The position numbers and the translations under genes were made by a program. Below are positions 6,951-46,937 of a stretch of DNA of 64,000 bases, piece by piece. How positions within the stretch are numbered: position 1 is the stretch's first letter; the number at the start of each line of letters is the position of its first letter. The notes under the pieces were generated by a model. The model saw nothing but the letters and a program-made list of their open reading frames with translations, did no database searches and had not been told where the DNA came from. The DNA comes from Malacoraja senta (Eukaryota): the NCBI GenBank assembly GCA_038087875.1, contig CM075991.1, positions 5,952,001 to 6,016,000 of the forward strand, given 5' to 3'.

Positions 6951-6957
6951 AGATGCT

Positions 6958-7968
6958 CAGGCACAGGGTGGCATTCTAATGTTCGCTACCCACCAAGTCC
7001 CCAATTTGATATCGAATCAACAACTGGAAAAATTGAGTCAAGATATGCAATGTGACTGTCACGTAAGATCGTTGTCTATAGCGAGAAAACTGGATCGGAT
7101 ATACCAAGATGCTCAGGGAACATATATTTTTGGACTTCTTCTCCATGTCCTACGCCAGCTGAAGAATAAGACGTTTATCCTATACCAGTTGCATTTATTG
7201 GGCAGTATAAACAATGAGCTTCGATAACAATGCACTATGCTCTTGAACATAATGTGATAATTGATAAAGTATCAAGGGGCATCATAATGGACCGGTCATC
7301 AAACAAGAAATAATGAGTAGGATGGAGTTTGGTTGAGGATTTACTCATTATAATAACGGTAAGCTTTAGATTGATCTAAAACCTAATGCTTCTTTTGCTA
7401 GTGTTGCCTATACATGGGAAAATATTAGGTCGCTGCCTCTGCTAAGTGGCATTGAACGAGTGGTCGGGAATGTACTCTACGTTGGCATAATATTATAAAC
7501 TGGAGTTTTACGAGACAGATCACTATCCGAGACAAGAACTTAATGGTACCGTCGGTGGGAAAATCGATAACAGTAAGCTTCATTGACTCGGACGAGACAT
7601 TAAGAAGATTTATCGCAAACAAACTTCAACCAATACCATACCTCCATGCTGATTGGAAGACACTGACTAAGGAGGGTGAAATGGTTATACATGACTGGGA
7701 TGAGAGCACTAAGCCTATTCGGATGAATGGCAGCGAAGCAGAGGACATATTGGAGAAAATGGACTTGGTGGAAAAGAGCCTGGAACTGGGGTCTGAATAC
7801 TAACGTGCACCCTTTGATTAGTTTTTGTACAGTTATTGATAGTGATTACTTTGTTCTTATTTTTGGTTTCACGGGATGTTGAAAGCCCTGATTTTAGTTA
7901 GGAGGAAGAGGGGATAACAGACAACAATTAGTTTCAGTAGGTGTATTAGTGGGTGCTGGTTAATATGG
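6958..7968 (+). pseudogene. Decayed viral envelope/fusion glycoprotein gene (env/F-like), copy 1, C-terminal two thirds
   Basis: Inverted homolog of 19405-21895; ends with WWKR.WNWG..NVHPLISF followed by a hydrophobic TM-like stretch; stops and frameshifts. Confidence 0.65.
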
Positions 7969-10919
7969 ATTTTACTTCGGAGTCACGTGAGTGACTACGT
8001 GAAGAACCCGCCAGCCCGCATGCGCGTATTACGTCTAACGCATGGCGCAGCGACTAAGTTTAAAGACCTCCAGGTAAGTTCTCGAACTCAGCTTGCGGTC
8101 GTTTTTCCTCGTTCTTATTACAGGTTAAGAACAAACAACTATGGACAAGGCGAGGGTGAAGTCCAGACGGGCCGCAGGGAGAACCGCTACGGAAGACCGC
8201 GGCAGTACGGTTAGCGGGCGGTCGTCGGTTTCACCATCACGGTCACTGGCAGCACAGCCAGCGACTTCGGACGCGGTGCCCGTAGAAAGCACCGTGGCTA
8301 CGCGAGAGTTGGCAAGGCCAAAAAGAAGTACGACAGACCGGTTGACTCGGACAAGTCCAGTCGGGAGGGTTCACCTCCTCCAGCAGGGAACATCTTCGGA
8401 CATCGTTCCCGTATGGATCATCTAATGGAGGAGATGCTCCAACATGATATACTCCATGGACGGGAGTCATATCAGCGGGGGGCTCCAGGTCCAGCGGCAG
8501 CGCATGGCGCAGGGCTGCATTATATCTCCCTATTTAAGGAAGGGAGCGTAGGTCATCAGTCCTGGGTTGGCTCACACTACAGTGGTATGTCGGGGGAACG
8601 CTCCACGAAACAAGATCTGCGTGAAGCAGAGATACCCACTATGGTGCCGAAATTTGCATTGCCGTCGCAAATCGGCGAGCCACTGGACGAAGAACTAGCG
8701 GCCAGTATCAATTACCTGGCTTCTCACCAGCTACAGGAAGAGCTAATGTTGGAGACGGCCATGAAATACCACACACACAGCAACTGCGCCTCGCTAAGAG
8801 TTCTGGCCGTAAATAGCTCCATTTGGAGTTACATGGGTGGAGGCATAAAGATTCAGGAGGTTAAACTCCAAAGGATCCTGAGCCTGCTGGCATCCGGGGT
8901 CACGGCCTTCGGCAGGTCAATGGACGGAAGCGCCCTGTCTGAGGTTCAACGGAACGCATTGGCACTGATGTGCAATGCACATTTTCAGATAAATTGCTTT
9001 TGCAAGAATGCCATTCGTCCTGTCCTCAATCCCAAGTTTGCGGGTTTATGCAGGTCCAGCAATGTGCAGCCGGCCAATTATTTATTTGGGAAAGACCTGT
9101 CCAAACAAGTCAAGGACCTGGAATTAGAATCAAAGGCTGTGGGGCTTCTCAGAGCTGCACCAGCGAACAGACCTTTGTCGTTCCAACGGCAGCACCCTTA
9201 TGCCTCTACCAGCAACAGACGTACAGGAGCCAGTACCAGCTCAAGGACCGAAAGAACCAGCAAAGGGTCTTTTTTAGGACAAGGCTCAGGCCGGCCGACA
9301 TCGAAGATGCGCAGTTGGCGCACTCCAATACCCTTACCCCTCAAACATCGAGGGCGGATATAAACATCGCAGAACCACCAATATCTATGGAGGTAGGTGG
9401 GTCTGGTTCTCGATGGAACATGCGGTGTGTGGGTCAATCACATGTTGGTGGGATATTACGTTTCTTTTTGAATGAATGGCGTTCGATAACATCGAATTTG
9501 TTTATACTGCACAGTATAGATGATTTCCAAATTGAATTTTCTGATTCACTTCCACCCACACAGCATACTCCAAACCATACTTTTGTTTGTTCACAACAAA
9601 ACGGTTTGGCTGTACAAATTGAAATTCAATCATTATATTCAAAAAGGGTAATTGAGAAGTCGAATCATGAATCTCGCCAATTTGTGTCCAATATATTGAC
9701 AAGACAAAAGAAAAATGGGGGATGCCGAGTCATCCTGGACTTGACCCAACTAAACACCTTTGTGCAGTACAGACATTTAAAAATGGTAAATTGTGTTACT
9801 CCCAAACAATTGATTTCCAAAGAATGTTATATGGCATACATCGATCTTAAAGATGCATACTATTCGGTGCCTATTCATAAGGATCACCGGAAATACTTAA
9901 AATTCAACTGGATGGGGCAGCTTCGGCAGTTTAAAGCATTGCCTAATATGTTAACTTCAGCCCCCAGATTATGCACCAAATTATTAAAACCAGTTCTTGC
10001 TCTTTTACGAGCGCAAAAACACACCGTAATGGCGTACTTGGACGATATCCTTATTATAGGCAAGACTCTGGAATTGTTTTTTTCAGCGGTCTCAGCCACC
10101 AAGCTCTTATTTGAGCGATTGGGATTTCTCATCCATCCAGTTAAATCCAAGTTGACACCATCCAAAGTTATGGATTATTTGGGATTCACTATTAACTCTG
10201 TTCATATGTCTGTAACTCTGCCTTGGAGCAAGAGATTGGAGTTAATAGAGTGCTGTAATTACCTCTTAATGAAGCAACAGCCTTCCATCGGACAAGTGGC
10301 CAGTTTAATTGGCAAATTAGTGGCTGCTTTCCCAGCTGTAACATTTGGACCTTTGTATTATCAACAATCACAACGAGCAAAGGTGCAGGCACTCAAACAT
10401 CATTGAGATCACTTTGACAGTCCTATGCAATTGCCGGCTGAACCATTGCTGAGTTACAATGGTGGAAGTCCAATATTCAGCATTGCTCTAGCAATATTTC
10501 GGTTGATGGTCCGTCAGTTATTTTACAAACGGATGCCAGTGCTATGGGATGCGGCGCTACTGACACCATCTTTGGCTGCGGTGGCAGATGGAACATGCAT
10601 GAGCTATCATTATTTCAGTTGCATGGTGTTAATTATTTGGAGTTACTGGCAGCTCTCTGTGGATTGAGGGCTTATTGCGGGTATATGCACCATCTGCATG
10701 TTCGATTACAGATTGATAACACCACAGCGGTGGCATACATGAATCACACGGGTGGAATCAAGACAGTATCCTGTGATAAATTGGCTAACCTCCTTTGGCA
10801 CTGGTGCATTGCAAGATATATTTGGGTTTCAGCTACACACCTGCCAGGTAGGTTTAATACGGTGGCAGACACTAGGTCATGCAAATTAAATGACAACACA
10901 GAATGGATGTTGAATCATA

Positions 10920-13900
10920 GAGTGGCGGCGTGCACCTAGCTCTGCTCCCGAAAAAATTCGCGATTTCTCGCGTTAAAACGGGTCCATAACTCGGAATTGG
11001 ATTAAAAATCTTACCGGAGCTTCTGGTCGCCGGGCTGATTACGTCATCAGTAAGCGCGATGTTTTAAACGGTGGCTTAAAGCCTTTTAAATGAGAAAACT
11101 GTCTCCAGCCAAGAGCCCTCAGAGATCAGTTAAAAAACAGCTGCTGAAAAATTTGAAGAAGCCTGAAGGACAAGTTACCTGAAGTTTCTGAAGTGGCTGT
11201 AGAAATGGATACAAGATCTAAGACAGAGCTGACTAAGGATAAAGAACTTGAGGATTTGAAGAAATCAGTGAAGGATATGAAAGATGAAATTATGGATGAA
11301 AATAAAGCTCTGATTGGACAAATGATGGAAAAAATCGAAAAGATGATGTGGATTCGAATGCTGCTAATCAGAAGATGGCTGATTCTATAAATAAACGAAT
11401 TGATGATGTGAAAGATGGACTATCGGGGAGAATTGATAAGATGGAAAAAATTACTATGGACAGGTTCACTGCTGTGCTTTTAACAGTAGCTGCAAGTATG
11501 GCCACAATTACGGAATTGGAGAAAAATATGGCTCGAGTGGTTGAAGACATGGTGAAAATGAGGCAAGAACATGATCAAATGAAGCAAGAATATGAACAAA
11601 CTTCAGTACAGATGACGACTCAACTGGGGAAAGTTTCAGATAAATGCCTGGACCTGGAAGCTCGCTCTAGACGCCAGAATTTGAGAATTCTTGGAGTCTC
11701 AGAGGGAACTGAGGGAAGGGACGTTCGTGAGTTTGCCATGGACTTACTTAAACAACTGCTTAATCTCTCCAAAGAACCGAAAATTGAAGTGGCTCATCGG
11801 GTTCCAAGATTTAAACCGAGACCTCAAGCTGGAAAAGACCACCCACGACATGTTATTGTGAAATTTCGAGACATTTCAGAACTGGAAGAGGTGATGAGTA
11901 AAATTAAATATGGAGTGCAATTGCGGATGGATAATGACATTATCAAAATATTCAGGGACTATCCATATGAAATTGTGCAAAAGAGAAATCAATTCGGAAA
12001 GGCAAAATAACTTTTAAGAGTTAAACAAGGTGTTAGATACGGTGTTTTTTATCCAGACAAAATGCGTATTTCTTATAATGGACGTGAAAGATCATTTGTA
12101 AAACTGGAGGCGTAGTACAAATATGCCCAGAGCATCGTTGAAAAGTAAAAATTAATGGCATGAATAAATCCTCTTTTTTATTAGAATTCCACGGTTATTG
12201 GAGGTTTGGCAGCTCAGAACCATTTCAAGCAGTGTTTTGTTTAGGATGGCGAGACTGTTATCTGTGGAATTTTGACTCAAGGACATTCTGTGTTCCAAAC
12301 GAAGTAAACAGCCGGACTGAAGAAAATGGACTATACCAGAAGCATTAATTGTTTAACAGATTATAATATTATATCCAATTGTAAGAATTGATCCTATTAA
12401 CAACCTAACAATTTAACAAGTTATCAATATTAAACTAGAATAGTAACGGACGCTAATAAAAATAAAAAATAACGAACTAAAAAAACTAATATAAATGTTT
12501 ACTAAATCCAAACCTTATCTATAACTGGGAGGAGGGGATGAGAAACGAGCACCTGGCTTAGGTCCAGGGGCGCGTTTCGCTAACCCCTTCAACCATCAGT
12601 TGACTATTATTGAAGCTAAAATCATTTGTTTAATAATTAGTAGCTAAAATTGCGATATATATATATGATATGTTATAATGAAATATATAGGGTAAATTTG
12701 TATCATATATCTGAATGTGAGGCCCCGTTCTAATATGCTATGATTAACCAAGAGAGCGGAGTTATTTGTTTAACATCAACAATGGAAGTCGAAACAACGT
12801 TTTCTCCCACCTACAGGTGGGCCACTTGTTACAGTGTCAACTATTTTAGACACTATTTTCACTTTTTCAATTTTTTTTAAATTATTATTATCACATAAAC
12901 TCACATGTTTGTGTTTTGTGTTCAGTGATAAGCGTAAAAGGGATATGCCAACAAAACTTAGTAATTCAAAGGTTCCCCAATACACAAAGACCTGGGATAT
13001 GGTTGCACCACAAGATTTAAACGTACTATAATTATTCAAAATGCAAGATGCTAAACAAAAGAACCTAGGAGGCGTCTCATTCTGCAGTTGGAATATAAGA
13101 GGTATTAACGAACCTATTAAAAGGGGTAAGATACTAGTTCAGCTGAAACTGTACAACTCTGACATCATCTTCTTACAAGAAACTCATCTAAAATCTCAGG
13201 ATCAAGCTAGGTTGAGGGCGAAATGGATAGGTCAAATATACCATTCTTCATATACTTCGAAATCTAGAGGTACGTCAATCATTATTAGAAAATGTATACC
13301 ATTCAAAGCAAAGAATACCATAACAGACATTGAAGGGAGATATTTGATAGTTAACGGAGAAATTTATGATACTCCAATTACTTTGGTCAATATATACGCA
13401 CCTAACTTTGACAACCCTCATTCTTTCAATAACATTCTGAACATAATCGCAGAGTTTAATTATCAAAATGTTATAATAGGAGGAGACTGTAACTGTGTTT
13501 TAGATCCGTATTTAGACAAATCAAGCCAAACACAGAGAGGGAATACGAAATCTAAAACCGGTGAACTTTTAAATACTTATATAAACAATACTAATATAGC
13601 AGATGTTTGGAAAATTGCTCATCCAACTGGCAGGGAATACTCGTTTTATTCAATGGTACATAAAACATACTCAAGTATAGATTATTTCCTGCTGGATACA
13701 AAATTAATCCCTCACACTTTGAACCCAGCATACCATACAAACTCGATTTCAGAACATTCACCACTAACTTTATTTTTAAAACTGGAAGGAATGTCTAAGA
13801 ATAAATCGTTTTGGAGATTTAATTCTCAAATCCTAAAAGATCCGCAAGCGAGTATATATTTAAAAGAACAAATGGACACCTTTTTTGAAATAAATGACAC

Positions 13901-16900
13901 TCCAGATATATCGCCTACTGTACTATGGGAATCTTTTAAAGCATTCATTAGAGGTATTATAATCTCATATCAAGCTTTTCAAAATAAAAAGAATAAGACT
14001 GAACAAAGACAGTTAGAAGAACTTATTAGACAAACGGATATAGATAATGCTAAAGATCCATCAATAGATAAACATAATAAAATAATAATTTTGAAATTTA
14101 AATTAAATAAACTATTATCAGCCAAACTTATAAGAGTTTTCCAAATTACAAAACAGGAGCACTTTGAATTTGGGGATAAACCGCATAAATTTTGGCTCGC
14201 CAGCTAAAAAAACGAGAAAAAGAACATACGGTCCCAAAGATTAAATCAGATAGAGGGGAATTATTAACCATACCGAAGGATATTAATAAAAGATTTGCGC
14301 AATTTTATGAGAATTTGTATACATCTAAAACGACAACTGACTCCAATAAAATGACAGAGTTCTTGGATAATTGTAATCTTCCAAAGTTAGAGTTGAAGGA
14401 ACAAGAGGAATTGGGTGCACAAATCTCAATTAAGGAATTAGAACATACAATAAACTCATTAAAGAATGGAAAAACACCAGGTCCTGATGGATTTACTAAT
14501 GAATTTTATAAAAGCTTTTATGACAAAATTATACCACGATTACAAAAAGTGTATCAATATGCTTAAAAAAAACAAATATTACCTGATACATTAGCTGAAT
14601 CAACGATCACACTAATACTTAAAAAAGGCAAAGATATAGAAGAACCGGGTTCATGTGGAGCTATAGCATTGTTAAATACAGATAAAAAAATATTAGCGAA
14701 AACATTAGCTAGAAGATTAAGTAAATATATTAGTAAACTAATAAACCCAGATCAGACGGGGTTTATCCCTAAGAGATATTCATCTAATAATATGAGACGT
14801 CTACTCAATATAATGTACTCACACAAAATTGAAGAACAAGAATTATCAATTATTTCGCAGGACGCTGAAAAAGCATTTGACCAAGTAAAATGGAATTATA
14901 TGGATAAATATGACAAAAATTCCAACTGGGAGAGAATTTTAGTTTATGGATTAAACTATTATATAATAAACCTACAGCTAGAATATTAACTAATAACATA
15001 TTATCCTCGAAATTTCAACTATAAAGGGGAAATAGACAAGGATGCTCATGATCACCACAGTTGTTTGCTCTCATAATTGAACCGTTAGCAGAAAAAATTA
15101 GAACACATCCAGATGTCCATGGGTATAATACTAAATGTCCAAATAATAAAATATCTTTATACGCAGATGATATATTATTGTACATTACAAAACCTCAAAT
15201 TACTATACCAAACATATTAAATCTAATTGAGGACTTTGGATCTTTTTCTGGATACAGAATAAATTGGAATAAAAGTGAAATTATGTCAATAAAACCGAAA
15301 GACTCAACACATCTTTTAAAATGCCCTTTTAAAATAGCTACAGAAAAATTTAAATACTTGGGTATTGAAATCACTAGAACATATCAAGGCATGTTTAAAG
15401 CACATTTTGATCCTTTACTTAATAAATTAAATACACAAATTAAATTTTGGAAAACGCTCCCGATGTCTTTAATAGGCCGAATCAATGCAATAAAAATAAT
15501 CTTCTTACCACAAATTTTATACCTATTTCAATCGATTCCTATATATCTACCAAAGAAGTTTTTTTTTAAACTGGATTCAGTCATTACTAATTTTATATGG
15601 GACTATAAATCACATAGAATACAAAGAACACACTTGAACAAAGCTAAAGTATTAGGGGGCGTAGCACTCCCTAACTTCATGTATTTGAGTCCTGAAAAAC
15701 GCTATATAAATAAAATCTATTATTATTATTATGGTCAGTAAATATTAAAAAAATATGATTCAACTGATGGACAACTCTGCCCAGCAACTGGACAGGATTG
15801 TAATGGAGAGAGAGGACTGCTCCTCTGGAAACATTGGAGCGATCCTCCTCTCACCAATGAAACTGAATAACATAAATTATAACAAAAACCCAATTATACA
15901 TAGTACAATCAGAACTTGGAAACAAATAAAACAAAATTTAAAACTAAGAAATCTATCGCTGTTATCTCCAATAGTTAATAACCCTTCGTTTAATCCCTCT
16001 ATTACAGACACATCTTTTATACAATGGGATAGACTAGGAATTAAAACGTTCAGTGACTTGTATGAAACTGGAAAATTATTATCATTCCAACAATTACAAA
16101 TAAAACATAAACTGGGAAATAATCAATATTTTAAACATTTTCAATATGTGACTATTTCAAAAAATATACAAAAGATCATTATATTATCCCAGCTGATGTA
16201 CTGGATGAAGCAATGCAGATACAAGCTGAATCAGCAAACTTAATATCATATTTGTATAATATTATCTTAAATGTAGAAATACCATCTACGGAAGGTATGA
16301 GAAGAGACTGGGAACAAGAATTTGCTATTAAAATCTCAAAGGAAAGGCGGAATGAACATTTACTAAACGTGCATAAATGTTCGATTAATGTAAGGCACAC
16401 TTTAATACAATTTAAAATTTTACATAGATTATATTATTCCAAAACTAAAATTAATAAAATTTTCCCTAATGTATCATCCATTTGTGATAAATGTCAATCT
16501 CAAGAAACTACTATAGCGCACTCATTTGTTTTCTGTACAAAAATTCAAAAATTTTGGATTGACATTTTTGAAATCTTTACAAAATTATTAAAAATACAAC
16601 TGATACCTAAAGCAGAATGGATTATCTTCGGAACAACGGAAGATAGTCCAGAACTAAATGTGTTTCAAAAGAAATTAATAGACTATGGGTTAATAACTGG
16701 AAAAAAATTAATCCAAAGAATTCTGGAAAAACGCTCCAATACCAACAATAAACATGTTGATTTCAAATATGTTCGAAACATTACACCTAGAAGAGATAAT
16801 TCTCCTCCTGGCAGGTAAACCAGATCACTTCCACCTGACGTGGTCTGCATTTATAGAATTATTACAAGTATAGGGTGCAAAAGTAAGGGGGGATGAAAGC

Positions 16901-17235
16901 TGGAGAGTTGGTATATCCCATTTGCGTGATGCTTATAATAAAGTATTTGTCTTTCTCTTTACCCTCTTTCTCTTTTTTCTTCTTCTTTAGGATCTATCTC
17001 TTAATTCTTTTTTTAAATGTAATTCTTACAGGGTCTTTGTTCTTTCTTGTTGTCACGTTCTTACACCTTCATTATTTTCCTTCACTTTCTCCTTTCTCGC
17101 AATCTCATCCTTTCCCTTTTATTAGTGTAAAAAATGACGGAGTATATTAATTGTAATAAGATATACGTGACGAGTACTAATGTAATTGGTTGTAATGTAA
17201 TGTACTTCTAATAAATAAAAATGTATTAAAAAAAA
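10920..17235 (+). mobile_element. Full-length (~6.3 kb) L1 LINE nested in DIRS1; ORF1 ~11193-12148, ORF2 ~13041-16870, both disrupted
   Basis: ORF1 coiled coil + RRQNLRILGVSEGTEG; ORF2 endonuclease (SWNIRG, LQETH, NIYAPN, IDYF), RT (YADD), CCHC (CDKC..AHSFVFC); AATAAA + A tail; splits the DIRS frame EWMLNH / ...KDIISRYGTPDIDLFAS. Confidence 0.95.
15685..15728 (+). mobile_element. Very short L2/SINE-type 3' tail inserted in L1 ORF2
   Basis: ttgagtcctgaaaaacgctatataaataaaatc(tat)n interrupts the L1 PNFMY..VNIK segment. Confidence 0.6.
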
Positions 17236-18920
17236 TTGTTTTAAGGATATTATTTCTAGGTATGGAACACCGGATATAGATTTGTTTGCATCCAGGCTAA
17301 ATCATCAGTTACCGAAGTATGTTGCATGGGAACCAGACCCAGGGGCTGTAGCGGTAGATGCTTTCTCGATACATTGGGGAGGAATGTTTTTCTATGCATT
17401 TCCCCCATTCTGCCTTGTCAGTCGATGCCTGCTTAAAATTAAGCAAGACTCTGCCTCGGGTATTCTAATAGTCCCTGACTGGCCTACTCAGCCATGGTAT
17501 CCACTCATTTTGGGTATGATCATAGAACCCTTCATGGCGGTTCCCAAATGCAGGAATCTGCTAATTCACCCCATCACTGGGGAAGAACATCCTCTACATG
17601 ATCGGCTAAACTTATTCGTTTGCAGGTTCTAAGAAGACCTTTCCTCGGGCTTGGACTGTCTGGACGTTCGGTGGATGTGCTGACTGAAGCCTGGAAAGAC
17701 AGCACTAAAAAACAATACATCTCCTACATGAAGAAATGGGAGATCTTCTGCTTGCAATCGAATATCTCGTATGACATAGCGCACATAACCAATATTTTGG
17801 AATTCCTCGCAAAGCTTCATTTTGACGAGAGACTGAGCTATAGTGCTCTAAATTGTGCCAGAAGTGCGCTGTCGTCATACTTGTTACCGAGCTCGGGACA
17901 CCACTTTGTTGGGTCTCATCCATTAATAACCAGATTCATGAGGGACATCTTCAACGAACCCTCCCAGGCCCAGATACACGGAAATTTGTGATGTAGGGGT
18001 GGTACTAACTCTGCTTCGCCAATGGGCTCCAGCAACAATCCTGTCCCTACTCCGGCTTACGTACAAGGTCGTGATGCTTATGGCACTAGTGTCAACTCAA
18101 CGAGTCCAGTCATTGCAGAAGCTACGTCTGGATAGGATGGCTACTTCTGCCAGTGTTATAACCTTATTTGTGTATGATCCAATCAAACAGAGTAGAGCAG
18201 GTACTTCCGGCCTTAAGCTACTGTTCATGGCATACCCCTTGGACCCCCGGATATGTGTGGTCTTACACCTCCAGCAGTATATTAAGATCACCGAGCGACT
18301 CAGGGGGTCAGAACTAGCGTTATTTGTTAATTACAAGAAACCGCATAAAAAGGTTTCAGCTCAGACCATATCCAGGTGGTTGAAACAGGTTCTGGCTGAT
18401 GCTGGTATAGACACTGAAATATTCAAATCTCATTCCACCAGGGCTGCAGTTACGTCCGCAGCAAGGGTCTTGGACGTCCCGCTGGACCATATTCTAGCAG
18501 CCGCAGGATGGTCCTGATAACGCACATTCCAGACATACTTTAACAAGCCCTTAGCCAGACCATGTGTGTTTGCAATCTCCATTTTAAGTTCCGTTTCAGT
18601 CTCCTCTCGGGTGAGAGAGGTTACTATTATTATTTTGTCCATTACACCTCAGCATGTTTAAATTTATGTCATGTCTGAATGCTTAATTTCCACTCTTCCT
18701 TGGTCAACTGCAGTGGTGACGTATGAACTCGTTCCACGGCATGAAGTCACAGAGCTTTAAAATCTTCACGTAGTCACTCACGTGACTCTGAAGTAAAATA
18801 GTAAGATAAACGAGAACTTACCAGTTTGAAGTTTGATCTTTATTTTATGAGGAGTTACGATGAGGGATTATGTGCCCTCCGCTCCCAACCCTCCTCATAA
18901 AAGTTCAGCTGGTAGTTCAG

Positions 18921-19150
18921 CTCATATTATTTGGATACCCTATGTGGTTCATACTCTGAAATGGCAAGCACGTAATTTATTTTACATCGATAGATATTTG
19001 AGCAGCCTGGAACAGTTTGGATATATGTTGCAGATTGTCAGTATGTGCACAAACACGTGTATCTATACACTGACACAGAGGAAATTCAGGGATAAGCTGA
19101 AGAGTGGAGTGAAATATCTACTCACATTGAATGGCCGATTATGTAGTTGA
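18921..19150 (+). pseudogene. Class A GPCR fragment (TM6-TM7-helix 8), GPR139-like family expanded in elasmobranchs; 5' part missing
   Basis: IIWIPYVVHTLKWQARNLFYIDRYLSSLEQFGYMLQIVSMCTNTCIYTLTQRKFRDKLKSGVKYLLTLNGRLCS*; AATAAA at ~19186. Confidence 0.7.
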
Positions 19151-20432
19151 CGTGTAACTCTGATAGCAACTTGGATGAAATTTCAAATAAATGTCTTTAA
19201 CAATTCGTACGTTCGGTAAAATGCAGAATGACAGAATCTCAGCAGAATGTTTCATTTTTAGCTATTTTAACTACGTTCTATCTTGGCCATTTTCCCATCA
19301 TGCTCGCCAGTATGTGAGCTCCAGTGTTACCCAAACTACAACCTACTCATCTTCCTTATAATTCTCAAAATTCTCTACATTTCCCCCTCTTGGCAATTGG
19401 TCACACCCAATTAATCCATATTAAACAGCACCCACTAATACACCTACTGAATGAAACTCATTGTTGTCTGTTATCCCCTCTTCCCACCTGCCTAACTAAA
19501 ATCAGGGTTTTCAACTTATTGTATATCCTCCTGTGAAACCAATATAAGAACAAAGTAATCACTATCAATAACTGTACAAAAACTAATCAAAGGGTGCACG
19601 TTACTATTCAGTCCCCAGTTGCAGGCTCTTTCCCACCAAGTCCTTTTTCTCAATATGTCCTCTGCTTCTCTGCCATGCATCCGAATAGGCTTAGTGCTCC
19701 CAGGCCAGTTATGTATAACCATTTCACCCTCCTTAGTCAGTGTCTTCCAATCAGCATGGAGGTGTGGTATTGGTTGAAGTTTGTTTGCGACAAATCTTCT
19801 TAACTGCACGTCCGAGTCATTCCGTACGACAATGAAGCTTACTGTTATCGATTTTCCCACCGACGGTACCATTAATTTCTTGTCTCGGATAGTGATCTGT
19901 CTCGTAAAACTCCGGTTTACAATATTATGCCACAGTAGAGTACATTTCCGACCACTCGTTCAATGCCACTTAGCAGAGGGAGCGACCTAATATTTTCCAA
20001 TTTATAGGCAACACAAGCAAAAGAAACATTAGGTTTTACATCAATCGAAAGCTTACCGTTATTATAATGAGTAAATCCACAACCAAACTCCATAATACGC
20101 ATTATTTCTTCTTTGATGACATCGGTCCAATATGATGCCCCTTGATACTTTACCACTTATCACATTATGTTCAAGAGCATTGTGCATTGTTATCGAAGCT
20201 CCCTCTTTCTACTGACCATTAATGTGCAACTGGTATAGGATAAACGTCTTATTCTTCAGCTGGCGTGGGACATGGAGAATAACTCCAAAAATATATGTTC
20301 CCTGAGCATCTTAGTATATCCGATCCACTTGTCTCTCCATAGACAACGATCTTATGTGACAGTCAGATTGCATATCTTGACTCCATTTTTCCAGTTGTTG
20401 GTTCGATATCAAATTAGGGACTTGGTGAGTAG

Positions 20433-21860
20433 TGTAAATAGTCATTACACACGTGTAGCATTATAATAGTCTTTAATAAGTATACAGAGTTAAACAACAC
20501 ATGAGTGTTCCCGGACTCCAGTCTGCTACTCTACTGCGCAGGAGAAGCAGGCGTTATTATAAATGATACTTATGGCGGGGTTAGTAGTGGTGAGGTAGCT
20601 ATATGATTGGTTGCATGCATAAACCATCTACATCCTTCCCCTTAGAAGATTAAACATGAACGCATGATTAAACATGGTGGATAACTATGGCAACGAATTA
20701 AACAAAATCACCATACCGAACAGGCGGCTTGCTGACACGGCCCAAGCGCGTACGGATCAACCCTCCCCCCCCTCCCCTCACCAGAAACGACAGGCATCAG
20801 AGAAATGGTTCAATTTCTTGCAATAGTTGCAGGCTTTACCAAAGGCAGGGCTTGGCGACTGCCTGCGATGCATGTAGTTACAGTTCGGGCATTTGGGGGT
20901 TTCACCGCCAGATACGGGGCCGGGCAGAGGCACAAATGGTGCGTTATCAAATCGAGGTTGCGGTCTATTGAACCCGGTCAGGTTGATAGATTTAGTGTCC
21001 GAATCACGCTGACTGTCTGGCGGGTCAATGGCCTCAGCCATTCTGCAGGTATGCATGGCTTCGTTTAAGGTCAGGTTGGGTCGGCGGAGGAGCTCTGATC
21101 TCAGTTTCTGATCTAGCATCCCTGTCACCAAAATATCTCTAGTTAGCTGGTCTGTCATAGCTTCGAACCTGCACCTCTGGGCTAGGTAGCGTAAATCGGC
21201 GATGAAGCACTCGACAGGCTCCCCGGGCAACTGCTTGCGAGTAAAGAATCGCGCCCTCTCTAAAATACGTTTAGAGGGCCGGTCACAAATCTCCCCGAAC
21301 TTGCGTAGCAGTACATGCGGATCTTCCGCAGTTTCCATGGGTACGAGTACCTGATTGTTGGCACCCAGGACTTCTGGGGCAAAATTGAAGGTCCTGGCTC
21401 TTGTCATGGCGTCGGGGCCGGCAAGGTTGAGAAGAAGCGAGGCTTTGACATCATCGGGCTCGTTCCGATGAGCAATAGTCATGTAGTGGCGGTAGTCCAG
21501 TTCGAAAGTAGCCCAGCGCTCCGCGATGCCCGAATCGAAGACGGGCTGAGCAGGCTTTCGGCAAGAGGAAGCCATTGTCAACATGAAAATAAAAACTTAG
21601 CAAAAGAAATAAAAACCTATAAACAGGAGACGCGAGTAGTCACTGTCTGACACCATGTAAATAGTCATTACACATGTGTAGCATTATAATAGTCTTTAAT
21701 AAGTATACAGAGATAAACAACACATGAGTATTCCCGGACTCCAGTCTCTGCTACTGTACTGCGCAGAAGGAGAAGCAGGTGTTATTATAAATTATACTTA
21801 AGGCGGGGTTAGTAGTGGTGAGGTAGCTATATGATTGGTTGCATACATAAACCATCTACA
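20433..21860 (-). mobile_element. Non-autonomous gag-only Gypsy LTR element (1.43 kb)
   Basis: LTRs 20433-20632 and 21656-21860 (TG...CA); PBS TGGTGTCAGA at 21655-21646; PPT at 20633-20645; 5-bp TSD agtag/ggtag; gag ORF 20778-21584 with CNYCKKLNHFSDAC knuckle. Confidence 0.92.
20778..21584 (-). CDS. Gypsy gag (268 aa), open frame
   Basis: ERARFFTRKQLPGEPVECFIADLRYLAQRCRF...RDILVTG; C-terminal Zn knuckles. Confidence 0.8.
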   Translation of the reverse strand: MLTMASSCRKPAQPVFDSGIAERWATFELDYRHYMTIAHRNEPDDVKASLLLNLAGPDAMTRARTFNFAPEVLGANNQVLVPMETAEDPHVLLRKFGEICDRPSKRILERARFFTRKQLPGEPVECFIADLRYLAQRCRFEAMTDQLTRDILVTGMLDQKLRSELLRRPNLTLNEAMHTCRMAEAIDPPDSQRDSDTKSINLTGFNRPQPRFDNAPFVPLPGPVSGGETPKCPNCNYMHRRQSPSPAFGKACNYCKKLNHFSDACRFW

Positions 21861-22847
21861 GGTAGCTAACATTAGAATGCCACCCTGTACCTGACACATT
21901 AGCCAGTTGGAATAAATACCACATACCTGTTCCCTACGCTCATCCTGAGAAATATTACTCAATAGATTACTCAGTCTATCGTTCTGTTTTTTGACTCCTC
22001 ATTGGGTTTAAGAACGTTATCTCCCGCAAGGAAGATTTGCAGTGCTTTCTCCCCTACCTTACAAAGTGTTTCGGCACCTTTAAATCCCAGTAGGCCACTT
22101 TCCATGTCTTCTTTCCAACTGTTCTAATTTCACAATAGGTTCTGCTACATCCATCACATTAACCCGTGGATAACTCTGTTGCATATCCAGCGCCCATTAT
22201 CTCTATAATTTCCCTTCGGGTTCTATTAGGCAGTGGGCCGAGGAGCTTTTTTGTGCAGTTTGGTGACCCAACACGTAACTACGTGAAATTTTCATATATT
22301 GTGTAAAAATATTATATAAATCATCCCTGCAACTCGTCAAGAACAAAATTGCGCATATTTATTAAATTAGAGAAAAACCGGAACATTTTCGGGTATTTTT
22401 AGTCCAATCAATGCACACTTAACATTGAGTCGGACGACAGTTGGCCAATCACGCGGTTTCATGCTAGCTAGGCAGGGAGCACACAACATGGCTTCTACTG
22501 ATGCCTGTTTTACTGGAGATTCCGACGAAGGTTCTTTGTTGTTCTGTGGATTACATGTCGTGGAAACTTGCAGCAGGGTAATTGAATTTAGTGAGAAAAG
22601 CATTAAGAAGTCTGAAGAATGTGCAGCTAAGTGGATAGAAGTGGAACAAAGCCTTGAAAGCAAAGTCCCTGCTGAGGTGCTGCAACACAAAGAGGACAGC
22701 CAATTCGTGAAACCAGTCAAACTTTGTGAACGAATTGGAACTGAAAGGTAAGATCTAAAGTCTGAATTTATGAAAATGTATCTGTATGGACTTTAATTAA
22801 TTTAATTGCACCCTTTTATAATGTGAAAAAATGAGATTTGGAATGAG

Positions 22848-22972
22848 ATTCACTCATTCATTCACTCACTCGTTCACGCATTCACTCATTCACTCATTCA
22901 TTCACTCATTCATTCACTCACTCGTTCACGCATTCACTCATTCACTCATTCATTCACTCATTCATTCATTCA
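22848..22972. repeat. (CATT/CACT)n simple repeat with a higher-order duplication
   Basis: Direct inspection. Confidence 0.9.
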
Positions 22973-23634
22973 TGAAGTTGAGGGCCTAAATTATGTGTAT
23001 CCATAACAAAGTAAATTAAACATTTCCGCTAATGCCAGCTTGTTGAATTCAAATAAGTTTTCTTTAGCATCTATTCTCGGAGCTGCTGCGATAACTTACC
23101 GGAGGCTGTACATAGTGCCGTCCGTAGCGGCCGTTTCCAGGCCCCGACCACGGGAGAAAAATGGAGGAATTATTCACTGCACTTTATAGGCTTCCATTGG
23201 AGTGAGAAATGGTCAGAAATGGCTGATGTTTATGTCGAAATGAATTGGTGTATATGAACTTGAACTAATTTACCTATGGTAGTAACAATGTTATTCTCAT
23301 TAACATTAAGAAGAGGTTGAAATATTATGAATTGAAGTCCATGCAGATTTAATGACTATGAGATGTTTTTTTTATAGCCTCTGCCTGGCCCTCAACTTGA
23401 ACTTGAACTAACTTATCAATGGACTTATCAAAACTTATCAAAAGACTTGGAATCTGATGAAGAATATTCAGATGAAGATCAGATGTAATTTAAACAAATA
23501 AATTAGGGAAATAAATGATTATATAAAGTTTTATTTTAATGTCGATCGTTTCAATGTTTATTTGGTCAAATTATTTAAACAATGAGTGAATTACTTGTGA
23601 TAATGGCGTGCTGGTGAATGACAGTGCGACAGTC

Positions 23635-23935
23635 CACCCACGACCCACCCATCCACACATACATACATTCATACACACATACACACGTACATCCGTACGC
23701 ACAGTTCCATGCCTGCACACACGCACACATGCATGCACATATACATCCACACACATCCACACATCCATCCGCACGCAGACATACATGCACACATCCATGC
23801 ACACACATACATCCACACACATACATCCACACATACATCCACACATCCATCCATCCACACATACATACACACTTACATCCACACACCCACAGATACAGGT
23901 TTGACAGGAATACACAGACACACACACTAACTACA
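23635..23935. repeat. Degenerate CA-rich low-complexity repeat
   Basis: Direct inspection; source of spurious HT/CV ORFs. Confidence 0.9.
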
Positions 23936-24716
23936 GATACTCAAACAATGCAACACTTTTAGGGTTATTTTAGGTTAAAAGTAATAGCCCTCATTTGCAA
24001 AGGCACCATCGGGGGATCTCTGACATAAATATAGGCTCATTGTAGGTTAAAATGAATACTCATCAAGGAAACATCAGAGCATTCGAATCTTGGTCAGGAT
24101 TGACATTCACATCAGAAATAAGACAGGTCTCTTACAGGTCTGTCACCCAGGTTAATTCTCTCGTGGGTGTTGAGCACCATTCCGCAATGTCCAACCCCGT
24201 AAGGTTCAATCGGTATGTAATCTTCCGCCGTCCTGGAGGAGACTGGAAAAAATCAAGGCAGGACAAAGCGTAGCAGCGTGAATCACATTGGGGGAGCAGT
24301 GAGAGACTGTCTCGCAGTGGCATTAAATTACATTTAGACGGGCTCGTGGATGGGAAAGGTTGAAAGGGACATGGACCAAACACAGGTAGCGGGGACTAGC
24401 ATGAGTGGGATATGTTGGTCGGCATGGGTACGTTGGGGTAAGGGGCAGTTTCGTTGCTGCATGACCCTATGACTCGAACGGTGATATGGAGGTTGTGGAG
24501 GCCAGTGAGTTGAAAGGTGGGACTAGAGAAACTCCACCTCTCTTCGTGAAAGTTGAAAGACTGGTTCTCCAAGGCGGAGAATAAAGTCTGCAGACGGTTC
24601 CAGCGGGACAGAGGTTGGCCGCTCAGACACTGCGGAAAATAAAATCTGCAGGCGGTGTCACCAGAAAATAAGTTGCCCTCTCAGACACTTGGGAGAAGCG
24701 ACCTGGTTGGGAGATA

Positions 24717-27067
24717 ATGGTATGTACGGTGCAGCTTTTCGGTATTTGGGTGTTGTTTGGTCTTCGATAAACTGACGTTGACAAAACTCGATTGCCTGAG
24801 CTATAGGGAGAGGTTGGGGACGCTGGGAATTAAACCTTGGCAGCGCAGAAGCATGAGGTGTGAACATAGAGGTGGGTAAAATCATAAAGGAAATAGATAG
24901 ATTCAATGTACAGAGTATTTTAAGCGGACTTGGGAAATACATCACCAGAGGACATGAATTCAAGGAGAAATTTAATAGGAGCCCCGGCGTCAACTTTTTC
25001 ACACGGAGAGTGGTGGGTGCATGCAACGATAAGCTTTGTGCATCTGGCTGTTGCTGGGTGACAGCTGTACAACCGCCTGCCGCGGCGATGGTGACAGGGA
25101 CATGTTGCAGTCTTAGTTACTTAACCACGTCGATCATCGAGCTCCTTATTTCTCTCCCTCCTTGCCTCCGCAGAAACTCCTTTTGTGCATCGCTCTGCTG
25201 CTTCTCGCTGCTCAGCTGTCGGAATCCGGCTGCTTCTTTCAGCGACAGAAGACAAGAGGTAATCTATCAATGTGAATCTCTCTCAGATCTGGTAGTTCGG
25301 CCCACCGAGACCGCGCCTTTCAACAATCACCCGTACACGAGTTCGAGGGACTAGGGACAATTAGGGACACTAGGGACAATTTACCTAAGCCAATTAACCT
25401 ATAGACCTTCTGGTCTTTGTAATGTGCGAGGAAGCCGGAGTGCCGGTGAATACCCATGCGGTCACAGGGAGAATGTGCAAACTCCTTACACAGAGCACCC
25501 GTAATCGGGGTTGAACTCGGGTCTCTTGTGCTGTAAGGCAGCAACTCTACCGCTGCGCTGCAGTGCCGCGTAAGTTAGCCATTCATGGGTCCCGGCGCCA
25601 GGCAGACGAGGGCTCCACCCGAGCCGACTGCCTGTCCCTTTTCCGGGGTTACGACCAAAGATACTAGAGGAGTATCTTTGGTTCCGACGGCGCCCTGCTG
25701 ACCCTTGAAAAAGAACACGCAGTGCCCACTGGCACCATGGTGGCATTCCAGGAGCGCTGGGCGCCGCTGGGGATTGACTGGGGGGAGGCTGGGTGTTAAG
25801 TCGGGGTGTTGAAGACTGAACCCGGGTTAAACGGTACAGTGTGGCCAAGGGCCAGGTCCGGGTCAGTACACAAGAGGATGGATGCTGGCTCTTCTCACAC
25901 GTTTTGACGGCTCATTTCATGGGTGCCTTGGTATTGAGCGAACACAAGAGACCCTCTCCCTCCCATGTCCTCGGATCACTCCACTCCCTGATGGGGCACT
26001 GACCATCCGCTGTCTTTATCACCAACAGCCAGAGGCAGACCCCGGATGCTCATGAGGTGCATTGATAAATCTGATGGGACGGTTCATCACATCGGAGAAA
26101 GTTGGTACAGTTCCAACTGTCTGAAATGCGAGTGTTCGTCTGATGGTTATGAATGCTGTGAATTGTAAGTAATCCTCCGCCATCCAAAGGTCATGATCTG
26201 ACCCCAGCGGCTGAAATTGCAGTGTAGAGCTTGGGTGGGTATTGCCGATGTCAGCCAGTGAGCCGAGTGGGGTTGGCGATGGATTAGGACTTGATGGGCA
26301 CAGTCGACGGAACGGCCTGAGCGCCGACTCTCCCCATCTCTGTGCTAAACCCGATACACAGGCTCGGGCCCGAATCTGGTTTTAGGTTGGGATCGGTAGA
26401 GGAGTCTTGATGGAGGGAGGAAAGGAGAAACTGCATGGCGGACAGTGATGTACAGTCGAAGCCAGCCATAGAGGCACACGGCAAGGACACAGGCCCTTCA
26501 TCCACCGAGCCCATGCCGACCATCAACTGCCCATTTACTCGAATCCCACCCTAACCCATTAAAGTCTAACATGTAGACACAAGGAACTTCAGATGCTCGT
26601 TTAATTTTTTTTTTAAACCGCATTGGCTGGAGTAACTCAGTGGGTCAGGGCGCATATCTGGAGAACATGGATAAGCGACTTTTCGGGTTTGGACCCTACC
26701 TCAGAGTGACTGCACCTCCGACCGCTCCCAGTCCCGGCCACCAAATGGGACTAATTGGAAAGGTCGCGTAGACAAGAGGGTCAAGAGCCAAGATTGTCTT
26801 GTGTAGGATACAAATGCAGATGCTGGTTTAAATCGAACGTGGACACAAAATGCTGGCGTAACTTAGCAGGACAGGCACCATCTCTGGAGAGCAGGAATGG
26901 GTGACTTTTCCGGCGATACCCTTTTAGTTTAAGAGTGTCTTGTTGTCATAGGTGCCAGATAGAAAATGAAATCCAAACTTACTTGTGTATGATGCAGAAG
27001 AGTTGCAGTCTGCGCCTCTGAGTTACTCCAGCACTTTTGCGCCTTTTTCAAAATTGTGTATACACAC

Positions 27068-33087: not shown

Positions 33088-35716
33088 ATGGTATGTACGG
33101 ATCATTTTGTGCATCTGACTGTTGCTTGGTCTTCAGTAAACGACTCAGCGCAGCTCGAAGTCGCTGCACAACCGCCGCCCGAGGTAACAGAGACGCGGAC
33201 ATGTTGCAGTGTTAGTTACTTAACCACGTCGCTCATTAAGTTCTCTCTTTCTCTTCCCCTTTCAGAACCTCATTATGTGCATCACTCTGCTGCTTCTCGC
33301 TGTTCAGCTGTCGGATTCCGCCTGCTTCGTTCAGCGGCGGAAGGCAAGCGGTAATCTATCTATGTGAATATATCTCTCAGATCCGTCGCAAGTACTTAGC
33401 CGACATTGGGGAGCAGGACATCATTCTTAGGTCCAGCGCCAACGTCCCCTTTGACATCCCGCCTGTTCCTCAGTCGGGTTGGAGTCTGAGGATAGTGGAG
33501 TTGATGCACCGACCAATTTTCAATTGAGGGAGCGCTCCTCTACTGCACTTCAGCTGAGGCACAGACCGCGTCCAGAGGATCTCCTCAGACGGATATGCAG
33601 CCGCCCCAGAACTAAGATCAATAGTTCACCCGCAACAGTTGTTGATAGAACAGGTCAATCACTGGTCATGCTGCGCTCGTAACGGAATCCACGCTATTCT
33701 CAAGAATGGCGACATCTCGCCAAATCCTCATTGGCCGAGATGCGTTTTGCCTGAGAATGGGGAAAATACCCCCGAAGATCCTCCCAAACATGTGACTGGT
33801 CCCGGGACCCACAGCCTGGATCCCATTGCGTCATGGGTTCATACCTTAACCAGGGGCAACGGCGAGGACTAGCAAAGTATGGGTGCCCTACGAGAATGGG
33901 CTGCACCCTGCTTTCTGGCTCCACTTCAGGCCCAGCATCCTGATCTTTTGTCACCCGGTGCGGACAGGGAAGGGGAGGGAGGGAGGGAAGAGGGGATGGG
34001 GGGGTGTTTGGGGGTGGGGTGGTGGGGGAGCGGGTGTCCCTGTCGGTTTGCTCCTGGGCCCGGCCAAGATGGCCATTCACGGGTTCAGGCTGCGGGTAGT
34101 TGAGGGTTCTGTCCGAGTCGACTGCCTGTCCCTCTTCCAGGTCTACGTCCGTGCCCGCGAGTCCCTGGAGATGGAGCATGCAGTGTCCATGGGAACTCTG
34201 GAGGCCATCGTGATGGCTGGTCGCCGCGGGGGACGAGAGTATTGTAGATAAAGTTGACAATATCTTTAATCTTATAACTGTTAGATTGTAAACTGCCAAT
34301 TGCAGTCTTAAATGTGTTACTACTCTGTATCTATGTTTGAATGAATAAAAGCATAGGATTTTTTTAATGCGGAAGGGAGAGTGAAGATAAGAGGGTGATC
34401 TGATTGGTTTGCTCCTGGACTTGGTCAAGCGGGCCATTAGTGGGTGAAGGCGCCAGGCAGACGAGGGCTCTAACCGAGCCGACTGCCTGTGACTTTTTGG
34501 GGTCACGACGGCGCCCAACTGTCCATTGCAAAAGAACACGTGGTGCCCAATGGCACCATGAAGACGCTCCAGGGCGGCTCGGTGCCGCGGGCAGGGTGTT
34601 AGGTCTGACCGCTTCAGACAGAACCCGGGTGAAACGGCAGCGCGACGCCTAGGGCCGGGCGAGGCCCGGTCAGTGCTCACTGGGACAGACCCTGGCTCTT
34701 CCCAAACACCTGAATGGCACATTTCCAGGGTGCGTTGGTTGATCCAGCACCAGGGCTTCGCACGACGTCGGGTCACTCGACTCCCAGATGGGACACTGAC
34801 CAACCGCTCTCTTTATCACCAACAGCTGCGGGGATATTCCGGGCGCTCCACAAGTGCATTGATAAATTCGACGAGACGCATCATAAATTAGGTGATAAAT
34901 GGACAAACTCCAACTGCCACCAATGCACGTGTACCTCCGACGGTTCTGAATGCTGTGAACGGTAAGTAATCCTCCACCTTTCAGCTCACAGGATCTGACC
35001 GCGGTGGCTGAAATGGCGCCGCAGGTCACTCATGGGTGTCGCTGAAGCCACGAACATATCCATGTGGCTTGGCGATGGATTGGAAATAGACTGGCATACT
35101 ATACAGAACACACCGAACGCCGGCCTCTCCATATCCGTACCAAACCCGACACACGGAAAGGCTTGACCCGGGATCTAATTCTATGTAGGACTGGTGGAGG
35201 CTTGGCGGGGGAATGAGGGGTGTAATGGCCTGGTGGACAGTAATAGTTGAAGCAAACCATAGACTCACACAGCATGGATACAGGCCCTTCAGCGCCACGC
35301 CCATATCCCCTGATTCCTCCAACATCATTTTTGTCACTCTGGATAAAGACAATTGTGGTAAACGGAATTTTAAGAATCAATAGTGTTTTGTAGTCATATG
35401 TCCTGAAACGGAACAATGTAATTCTTAATTGCAGCAGCAACACCATATGGAGGTCAGAGATAATTTTGAGATTGTAGTGCTTAATAGTTTTATGGTTATA
35501 GGGAAGTAGTCAAGGGGCCTCCTTCTATGAGCATCTTTTCTGTGATTCCGAATAGTTTATCATTGGATCTCTGATCTGTTCCTCAGGCTTTTCAGGCCAA
35601 CTACTTACCCAGAAGATTGTACCTTAATTCTCGATCAGAAGACTTGTGTGTTTCGTGTGCACCTGACGAACGACCCGTCTGTCGAATGTCCAGTGCATGA
35701 AGCTGTTGGAAAATGA
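33088..35716 (+). CDS. MSMB-like: Beta-microseminoprotein-like gene B, intact; exons 33088-33090, 33266-33350, 34826-34961, 35587-35716; 117 aa
   Basis: MNLIMCITLLLLAVQLSDSACFVQRRKASAAGIFRALHKCIDKFDETHHKLGDKWTNSNCHQCTCTSDGSECCERLFRPTTYPEDCTLILDQKTCVFRVHLTNDPSVECPVHEAVGK; canonical splice sites; AATAAA ~35722. Confidence 0.92.
33860..34610 (+). mobile_element. Two Tx1-like LINE 3' fragments in intron 2 of gene B
   Basis: LLLGPAKMAIHGFRLRVVEGSVRVDCLSLFQVYVRARESLEMEHAVSMGTLEA; second decayed copy at ~34400-34600. Confidence 0.7.

Positions 35717-43832: not shown

Positions 43833-46937
<3,105 letters not shown>

What the first reader, a model, noticed from the sequence alone, without database searches (positions are those of the whole stretch)
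19265..22230. Endogenous paramyxovirus-F-like env followed by PPT and LTR: candidate lokiretrovirus-type or env-bearing LTR element
Seen after removing the Gypsy insert and correcting frameshifts: RTRR|EIIEIMGAGYAT.LST.NVMD (furin site and fusion-peptide-like), ...QVCGIYSNWLM.QVQGGILMLATHQVPNLIS..., IFGVILHVP..FILYQLH, a Cys-containing region, WWERACNWG..HPLISF and a TM segment with a basic tail. About 70 nt later come AAGAGGGGGAAA and TGTAG. I see no CKS-17/CX6CC motif of gamma-type env. Known: lokiretroviruses carry env genes similar to Mononegavirales fusion proteins. Inference: a relic of such an element in a cartilaginous fish, a group where I do not recall them being reported.
Basis: partly seen in the sequence, partly recalled or inferred. 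Interest (0 to 1): 0.7.

Follow-up and report, generated by a model that had tools for sequence, protein, structure and literature searches.

The report
Dead retroviral envelope relic, probably F-type
This is the broken tail end of an old retrovirus-like element. Its envelope gene has shark relatives and probably works like a paramyxovirus fusion protein, but nothing here shows it is a lokiretrovirus, and one clue points to an ordinary retrovirus carrier.

Summary
On the minus strand lie a furin-type site (22224-22213), a broken envelope gene split by a gag-only LTR element (20433-21860), a transmembrane segment, a polypurine tract 66 nt after the stop, and TG. A second, inverted copy (6957-7971) shares breaks with it, so the gene was dead before the copies split. 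No gag, pol or second LTR was found.

HMMER found five relatives; four are named shark proteins (best E 2e-14). F-type homology is likely, not shown. A profile of the shark relatives ranks Loki-like Env first of 352 targets (E 0.013), and landmark spacing from the cleavage site matches. The reciprocal search, Pfam, PDB and two structure models gave nothing.

Lokiretrovirus membership is unsupported: Loki signature blocks are missing and the C-terminus differs. The only pol piece joined to a relative (catshark) is an MLV-type RNase H, which Loki lacks. Best reading: a shark F-type envelope family, probably on a class I (gamma/epsilon-like) retrovirus; the carrier is unproven. The scan noted F-type envelopes in another cartilaginous-fish genome before; whether it is the same family is untested.

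The parts
22213..22224 (-). Furin-type cleavage motif RTRR of copy B. No signal peptide or N-terminal subunit could be recognised upstream.
   Evidence: upstream stretch does not match the N-terminus of P0002 (65 of 200 shuffles score as high)
21861..22212 (-). Fusion-peptide-like start and helical HR1-like region, broken by frame changes and stops. Assigned by eye; no relative covers it.
   Evidence: heptad amphipathicity p 0.02, 0.06 and 0.15 for its three pieces; no PDB hit
20433..21860 (-). Nested non-autonomous LTR element: LTRs 21656-21860 and 20433-20632 (4.0% apart), PBS-like TGGTGTCAGA, 272-aa gag-like ORF with a CX2CX4HX4C knuckle, short pol-tail remnant, 5-bp target duplication with one mismatch. 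Copy A shows the empty site.
   Evidence: the Gypsy (Mag-like) label is recalled from motifs, Pfam gave no hit
19458..20432 (-). Rest of env copy B: beta-rich cysteine-bearing head, PIPHL motif, amphipathic HR2-like helix, aromatic WW..NWG..HP stretch, transmembrane segment, basic tail. In-frame stops near 20311, 20209, 19987, 19960; frame changes near 20100, 20002 and just before the transmembrane segment.
   Evidence: HR2-like amphipathicity p 0.006
19380..19391 (-). Polypurine tract, 66 nt after the env stop
18903..19379 (-). Candidate 3-prime LTR. Starts TGTAG at 19379; ends either at CTACA (19142, 238 nt) or runs on past an AATAAA at 18981 until cut by the DIRS element.
   Evidence: CTACA expected 0.22 times in 300 nt and AATAAA 0.37 times in 480 nt, so neither fixes the end
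6957..7971 (+). Copy A: second, inverted env fragment, 6.8% substitutions from copy B, without the nested element. Cut on the left by a LINE fragment and on the right, about 20 nt before the PPT, by the DIRS element.
7969..18902 (+). DIRS-type element between the two copies (RT, tyrosine recombinase, 37-nt inverted ends 7969-8005 and 18763-18799) with a nested L1-type LINE at about 10900-17230. A neighbour, not part of the env element; right end inferred.

Best explanation
The locus is the dead 3-prime end (env, PPT, LTR) of an endogenous retrovirus-like element whose envelope family is so far seen in sharks. In life the envelope was most likely a class I fusion protein of the paramyxovirus-F type. 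A host furin-type protease cut it at RTRR and freed a fusion peptide. An N-terminal helix and a membrane-proximal helix then folded back around a beta-rich head to pull the membranes together, with one transmembrane anchor. The PPT primed plus-strand synthesis at the edge of the LTR. The gene was already broken when copies A and B separated; later a gag-only LTR element, a DIRS element and LINEs inserted. The carrier is more likely a class I (gamma/epsilon-like) retrovirus than a lokiretrovirus. Shown: anatomy, shark relatives, shared breaks, insertion of the nested element. Inferred: F-type fold (about 0.75), the fusion mechanism (from the known F family), the carrier (one gene model). Today the locus has no coding function that I can see.
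For: HMMER on 1.84 billion proteins: 5 hits at E<=0.001; 4 of 5 are named shark proteins (3 Scyliorhinus torazame, 1 Heterodontus francisci), best E 2.4e-14. They share the PIPHL.AD and WG...HP.I motifs and the transmembrane end. A profile of two shark relatives ranks the two Loki-like Env ORFs 1st and 2nd of 352 targets (E 0.013, 0.058); 0 and 1 of 1000 shuffles reach those scores. A non-Loki ORF carrying the same search motif scores -2.2 bits. Those Loki-like ORFs have Pfam Fusion_gly as their only family (E 0.02, 0.01, below cut-off) over the same stretch. Codons from the cleavage site, window versus Loki-like L011: 120/121, 170/175, 187/192, 219/226. P0005 joins an RNase H piece to a piece of this env family; all 9 PDB hits of that piece are MLV or XMRV RNase H (E 2.7e-06). 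Its AELIAL motif occurs 0 times in the held text of the Loki supplement, where the RNase H reads QYAE(I/L/V)A.
Against: No direct F hit. Pfam found nothing relevant on 9 env frames or on the five relatives. PDB profile searches found no F protein. Both AlphaFold models failed (pLDDT 41 and 28) and Foldseek gave no match at E<=0.001. The reciprocal Loki profile listed none of 5 shark proteins or 9 window frames in its top 16 of 358. The window itself does not beat shuffles against Loki Env (100 of 100, 99 of 100, 163 of 300, 32 of 100). hhalign gives only E 0.028, probability 1.8%; P0001 alone is not significant (91 and 255 of 1000). L011 and L012 are 99% identical, so they count once. ESM Atlas features of P0001 point to gp64/rhabdovirus-type glycoproteins at 0.89, not to F (lead only). 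The landmarks for spacing were partly picked by eye. P0005 is one predicted gene model, about 30% identical to the window env, and could join two unrelated elements. That RNase H piece has no match in the window.
Confidence: 0.55

Rival explanations
1. A highly diverged lokiretrovirus in a cartilaginous fish.
For: Loki Env is the closest described sequence that gave any signal, with matching spacing and the same order: RxxR, fusion peptide, coiled coil, TM (PMC7947760).
Against: The Loki Env sequences seen in the supplement, lamprey to teleost, share blocks (GxIPxYLV, a HLAY/IAF..G block, FxLNLP, PxLxxC) that the window keeps only in outline, and they lack the WW..WG..HP end (by eye). HMMER returned no named teleost or amphibian protein. 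The Loki screen lists four chondrichthyan genomes and a row 'Chondrichthyes 3 0'. The linked RNase H is MLV-type.
Confidence: 0.12
2. An F-type env on another carrier: a foamy-like or snakehead-like class III retrovirus, or a Gypsy or BEL retrotransposon.
For: Foamy Env shares the F core (PMC11468914). F-type env is widespread on invertebrate Ty3/gypsy elements (bioRxiv 2023.10.26.564294). Elephant shark has snakehead-like ERVs (PMC4422223). No pol was found in the window to exclude these.
Against: The errantivirus study found no vertebrate elements homologous to the invertebrate ones (PMC13524379). P0005's RNase H hit no foamy chain in PDB. Foamy-like fish ERVs have GGGTG at the PPT-LTR border (PMC5210030); here it is AAATG. 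A snakehead-like carrier is not excluded by the RNase H.
Confidence: 0.15
3. A retroviral envelope of another, non-F fold, for example the unclassified epsilonretrovirus-type Env.
For: All direct F tests were negative. Epsilonretrovirus Env is neither gamma- nor beta-type (bioRxiv 2021.11.23.469661), which fits an MLV-like RNase H with no CX6CC.
Against: About 400 codons lie between the cleavage site and the TM segment, far longer than gamma- or beta-type TM ectodomains (recalled) and typical of F1. The in-register match to Loki-like Env beats shuffles. Epsilon-type Env could itself be F-like, which would merge this rival with the best explanation; not tested.
Confidence: 0.15
4. A retroposed F gene of a negative-strand RNA virus (non-retroviral EVE).
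For: Paramyxovirus-like EVEs exist in fish and one shark (PMC11089739; PMC11521997).
Against: PPT plus TG directly after the gene, no Pfam Fusion_gly or PDB F hit as a true paramyxovirus F would give, and a relative joined to retroviral RNase H.
Confidence: 0.03

Closest known systems
Lokiretrovirus Env (Wang and Han, PMC7947760; main text parts 1-3 of 4 and supplement passages read)
   Same: Order RxxR, fusion peptide, helix, beta-rich head, TM; spacing of four landmarks within 1-7 codons; weak in-register profile match through shark relatives; env followed by PPT and LTR.
   Different: No direct sequence similarity to the window; Loki blocks missing; amphipathic helix and aromatic WW..WG..HP stretch before the TM; host group not among Loki hosts; the only linked pol piece is MLV-type.
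Paramyxo/pneumovirus F (Pfam PF00523)
   Same: Predicted layout of a long F1-like subunit; reached only through Loki-like Env, itself at E 0.01-0.02.
   Different: No direct hit; sits in an LTR element.
Foamy virus Env (PMC11468914, passages)
   Same: Retroviral Env with an F-like core and no CX6CC/ISD.
   Different: No PDB sequence hit; PPT border differs from foamy-like fish ERVs; linked RNase H hit no foamy chain.
F-type env of Ty3/gypsy errantiviruses (bioRxiv 2023.10.26.564294 section 6 part 1; PMC13524379 passages)
   Same: Furin site, fusion peptide, F-type ectodomain on an LTR element.
   Different: Described in invertebrates only; the Gypsy-like element here is an insert within env, not its carrier.
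Class I and snakehead-like ERVs of sharks (PMC4422223 part 1 of 2; bioRxiv 2021.11.23.469661 parts 1-2 of 6; bioRxiv 2026.05.06.723177 parts 1-2 of 4)
   Same: Host group of the relatives; MLV-type RNase H in P0005.
   Different: The envelopes characterised in the two preprints are gamma-type with ISD and a CX6CC-type motif; these are absent here.

Membership tests
Lokiretrovirus | RT in the clade sister to all sampled retroviruses | not testable with these tools
   No pol found upstream; no genome held
Lokiretrovirus | gag-pol-env between two LTRs | tested here: inconclusive
   Only env, PPT and one LTR start; no second LTR in the window; no Pfam hit in 22230-26900, minus strand
Lokiretrovirus | Env with RxKR site, fusion peptide, coiled coil and TM | tested here: met
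   RTRR, fusion-peptide-like start, amphipathic helices, TM; signal peptide not found
Lokiretrovirus | Env recognisably of the Loki sequence family | tested here: not met
   Window versus natural Loki-like Env no better than shuffles; reciprocal profile negative; only a weak match through relatives
Lokiretrovirus | RNase H grouping with foamy viruses | tested here: inconclusive
   Not present in the window; in one catshark relative the joined RNase H is MLV-type
Paramyxovirus-F-type fusogen | Sequence match to PF00523 or a solved F | tested here: not met
   broken query and shallow profiles, and even Loki-like Env reaches only E 0.01
Paramyxovirus-F-type fusogen | F fold | tested here: inconclusive
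   Models unusable, pLDDT 41 and 28
Paramyxovirus-F-type fusogen | Long F1 layout: cleavage site, HR1, cysteine-bearing beta head, HR2, TM | tested here: met
   About 398 codons from site to TM, spacing collinear with Loki-like L011
Gamma-type Env | ISD and CX6CC in TM | tested here: not met
   0 of 9 frames
Class I ERV (gamma/epsilon-like) | RT and RNase H of class I | tested here: inconclusive
   One 53-residue MLV-type RNase H piece in predicted protein P0005; no RT
Epsilonretrovirus Env | Homology to WDSV/WEHV Env | not tested
   No such sequence came from a tool; none among the 5 HMMER hits

The most novel reading that the evidence does not exclude
Sharks carry an orthoretrovirus-like lineage (gamma/epsilon-type pol) with its own F-type envelope, separate from Loki and foamy Env. 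F-type fusogens would then occur on Loki, foamy and class I retroviruses alike. That would favour F-type as the ancestral retroviral envelope, later replaced by gamma-type, or show envelope exchange across the deepest retroviral split.
Probability: 0.35. Interest if true: 0.72.

Novelty: new variant of a known kind. Interest (0 to 1): 0.45.

Why it matters
Wang and Han left four scenarios open for where retroviral Env came from (PMC7947760), and foamy Env has since proved F-like (PMC11468914). A further F-type envelope family in the earliest-branching jawed vertebrates, possibly on a class I pol, bears directly on that question and can be tested in public shark genomes. The chondrichthyan env surveys I read searched with gamma-, beta- or syncytin-type queries and would miss it. 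This locus by itself is a dead fragment without pol, so it is a pointer to the family rather than the proof.

Tried and rejected
Word-based homolog searches found nothing in 3 of 3 tries. Related-locus scans found nothing in viral contigs or metagenomes; a Loki motif scan of viral contigs gave 0. The same kind of scan in metagenomes gave 12 loci, of which 3 were Loki-like and 9 chance. ESM Atlas: no usable hit for P0002; sub-threshold viral glycoprotein leads for P0001. Two AlphaFold jobs failed, so no further fold search was run. blastp of Loki-like ORFs against P0002, P0001 and a window frame: E 0.30, 0.087, 1.9; hhalign with the second alignment E 0.078. The N-terminus of P0002 does not match the Loki N-terminal subunit (820 of 1000 shuffles). 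The L011 rows were void through a frame slip and were redone. Sequencing runs: 20 of 24 rows hold part of the stretch, 9 coded organisms; only 4 rows (2 organisms, 2 studies) reach shares of 0.20-0.28, the rest are small shares; none was laid, so this is not used as evidence; no RNA holder listed. Rfam: 0 matches in the window. The bacterial promoter scan is irrelevant to a vertebrate LTR. Rejected: env as part of the DIRS element (DIRS cuts copy A in its 3-prime untranslated part) or of the nested gag-only element (empty site in copy A). Rejected: the 238-nt TGTAG..CTACA as a proven LTR. Literature: 9 searches listed no paper describing an F-type env in chondrichthyan ERVs; the library lacks most subscription papers, the cartilaginous-fish foamy virus paper (PMC9972966) was not held, PMC9040795 was seen only as a listing, bioRxiv supplements are closed and the Loki supplement was cut when stored.

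Full report
1. Observation. RTRR lies at 22224-22213 and is followed by a small-residue-rich, fusion-peptide-like stretch. The frame is broken repeatedly, is interrupted at 21860-20433, and ends in a hydrophobic segment from 19586 with a basic tail and a stop at 19460-19458. A 12-nt purine tract (19391-19380) follows 66 nt later, directly before TGTAG. Twelve purines plus TG would occur about 0.03 times per 150 nt here. No CX6CC or ISD-like motif was found in 9 frames. The LTR is supported only at its start. It may end at CTACA (19142) or run past an AATAAA at 18981 to the DIRS element; both words are common enough to be chance, and the window has no second copy.

2. Surroundings. The interruption is a gag-only LTR element with LTRs 4.0% apart and a 5-bp target duplication; the Gypsy label is recalled from motifs. 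A second env fragment lies inverted at 6957-7971, 6.8% apart, with the empty insertion site. Between the copies sits a DIRS-type element with a nested LINE. The copies share two in-frame stops and at least one frame change at the same places, so the gene was dead before they separated. Whether they arose by local duplication or by spread of a defective element cannot be told. No whole genome is held. Pfam finds no pol in 4.7 kb upstream of copy B on its strand; farther upstream was not scanned. With the shark rate assumed in PMC4422223 the nested insertion would be about 90 million years old, with the mammalian rate quoted there about 9; this is only a range.

3. Relatives. HMMER over 1.84 billion proteins, with one frame and stops as X, gave 5 hits. 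Three are from Scyliorhinus torazame, one from Heterodontus francisci, one unnamed. All are fragments without a fusion-related Pfam family. A frameshift-aware alignment scores 217 against P0001, shuffles at most 46. The family shares an HxPR motif, a cysteine-bearing beta-rich region, PIPHL.AD, an amphipathic helix (p 0.006 in the window, 0.001 in P0001), an aromatic WG..HP stretch and a TM segment. The host of the window is probably a cartilaginous fish, by these relatives only.

4. Is it F-type? Direct tests were negative: Pfam, PDB, two failed AlphaFold models and Foldseek. To get an indirect test I fetched natural Loki-like env from metagenome contigs (3 of 12 loci); two of the three ORFs hit Pfam Fusion_gly weakly (E 0.01-0.02). 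A profile of P0001 and P0002 ranks these two first among 352 targets (E 0.013, 0.058) and beats 1000 and 999 of 1000 shuffles. It aligns LP..K.V.NVG.W and H.LCP in register, as hhalign does (E 0.028). The two ORFs are 99% identical and count once. The reciprocal profile did not recover the shark proteins, the partial third ORF scored -1.1 bits, and the window alone does not beat shuffles. An independent check is distance from the cleavage site, which lies on the far side of the insert: 120, 170, 187 and 219 codons in the window against 121, 175, 192 and 226 in L011; later landmarks drift (233 versus 250). About 400 codons separate cleavage site and TM. I put F-type at about 0.75: probable, not shown.

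5. Is it a lokiretrovirus? Membership rests on RT, which was not found. The Loki Env sequences shown in the supplement of PMC7947760 (16 of 23 places viewed) are alike from lamprey to teleost and end differently from this family (by eye). HMMER returned no named teleost or amphibian protein. That paper's screen lists four chondrichthyan genomes and a row with zero positives. One catshark gene model, P0005, joins an RNase H piece to a piece of this env family. All 9 PDB hits of that piece are MLV or XMRV, whereas Loki RNase H groups with foamy viruses and has another motif. This is a single predicted protein and may be a chimera, and PDB samples few retroviral genera, so a snakehead-like carrier stays open. 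It is still the only evidence on the carrier, and it points away from Loki.

6. Mechanism. From established knowledge of F proteins: cleavage at the basic site frees the fusion peptide; HR1 extends into the target membrane; HR2 folds back; the TM anchors the protein in the virion. The PPT primes plus-strand DNA and sets the LTR edge. These steps are inferred from family knowledge. What is shown is the order of parts, the breaks and the later insertions. No N-terminal subunit survives, so receptor binding cannot be addressed.

7. Known and new. F-type envelopes are known on lokiretroviruses (PMC7947760), foamy viruses (PMC11468914, passages) and invertebrate Ty3/gypsy elements (bioRxiv 2023.10.26.564294, PMC13524379, parts read). 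The chondrichthyan env surveys I read in part describe gamma-type Env. Epsilonretrovirus Env is stated to be neither gamma- nor beta-type and was not compared here. Nine searches listed no description of an F-type env in chondrichthyan ERVs; coverage is incomplete. Earlier scan notes describe young F-type ERVs with an Ig-like head in another cartilaginous-fish genome. They are unchecked, and sequence look-ups found no link to this family.

8. Verdict. A real but dead relic: new variant of a known kind, interest 0.45. The bold reading, a class I retrovirus with its own F-type envelope, has probability about 0.35 and would deserve 0.72.

Noticed in passing
window 26052-26159, 34852-34956, 40706-40807, 45093-45194, 51447-51548, 57274-57372, 62093-62194: Seven related cysteine-rich exon-like stretches on both strands, 48-59% identical; the four tested match PSP94 (beta-microseminoprotein) and VWC-type families below cut-off. 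Looks like a tandem gene cluster.
   Followed up: partly
window 7969-18902: DIRS-type element whose two ends each abut an env copy, in inverted orientation. The expected rest of copy A does not follow the right end, which suggests a deletion or recombination between two DIRS copies.
   Followed up: partly
window about 10900-17230: Near full-length L1-type LINE (ORF1, endonuclease, RT, broken) nested in the DIRS element.
   Followed up: partly
window 20433-21860: Gag-only LTR element with an open 272-aa gag-like frame and a short pol-tail remnant; no Pfam hit. A similar pol tail ends the integrase fragment at 255-1247, but their LTRs do not match.
   Followed up: partly
window 22371-22751: Open 126-aa frame on the plus strand just upstream of the env, preceded by CCAAT-like boxes; possibly the start of another mobile element.
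   Followed up: no
L011:21-1476 and L012:1724-2251: Loki-like env relics, 99% identical, in metagenome contigs; L011 covers most of the ectodomain with one frame change and one stop.
   Followed up: partly
P0002 residues 1-87: Signal-peptide-like start joined directly to the head region, with no cleavage site or HR1; an internal deletion or a gene-model artefact.
   Followed up: partly
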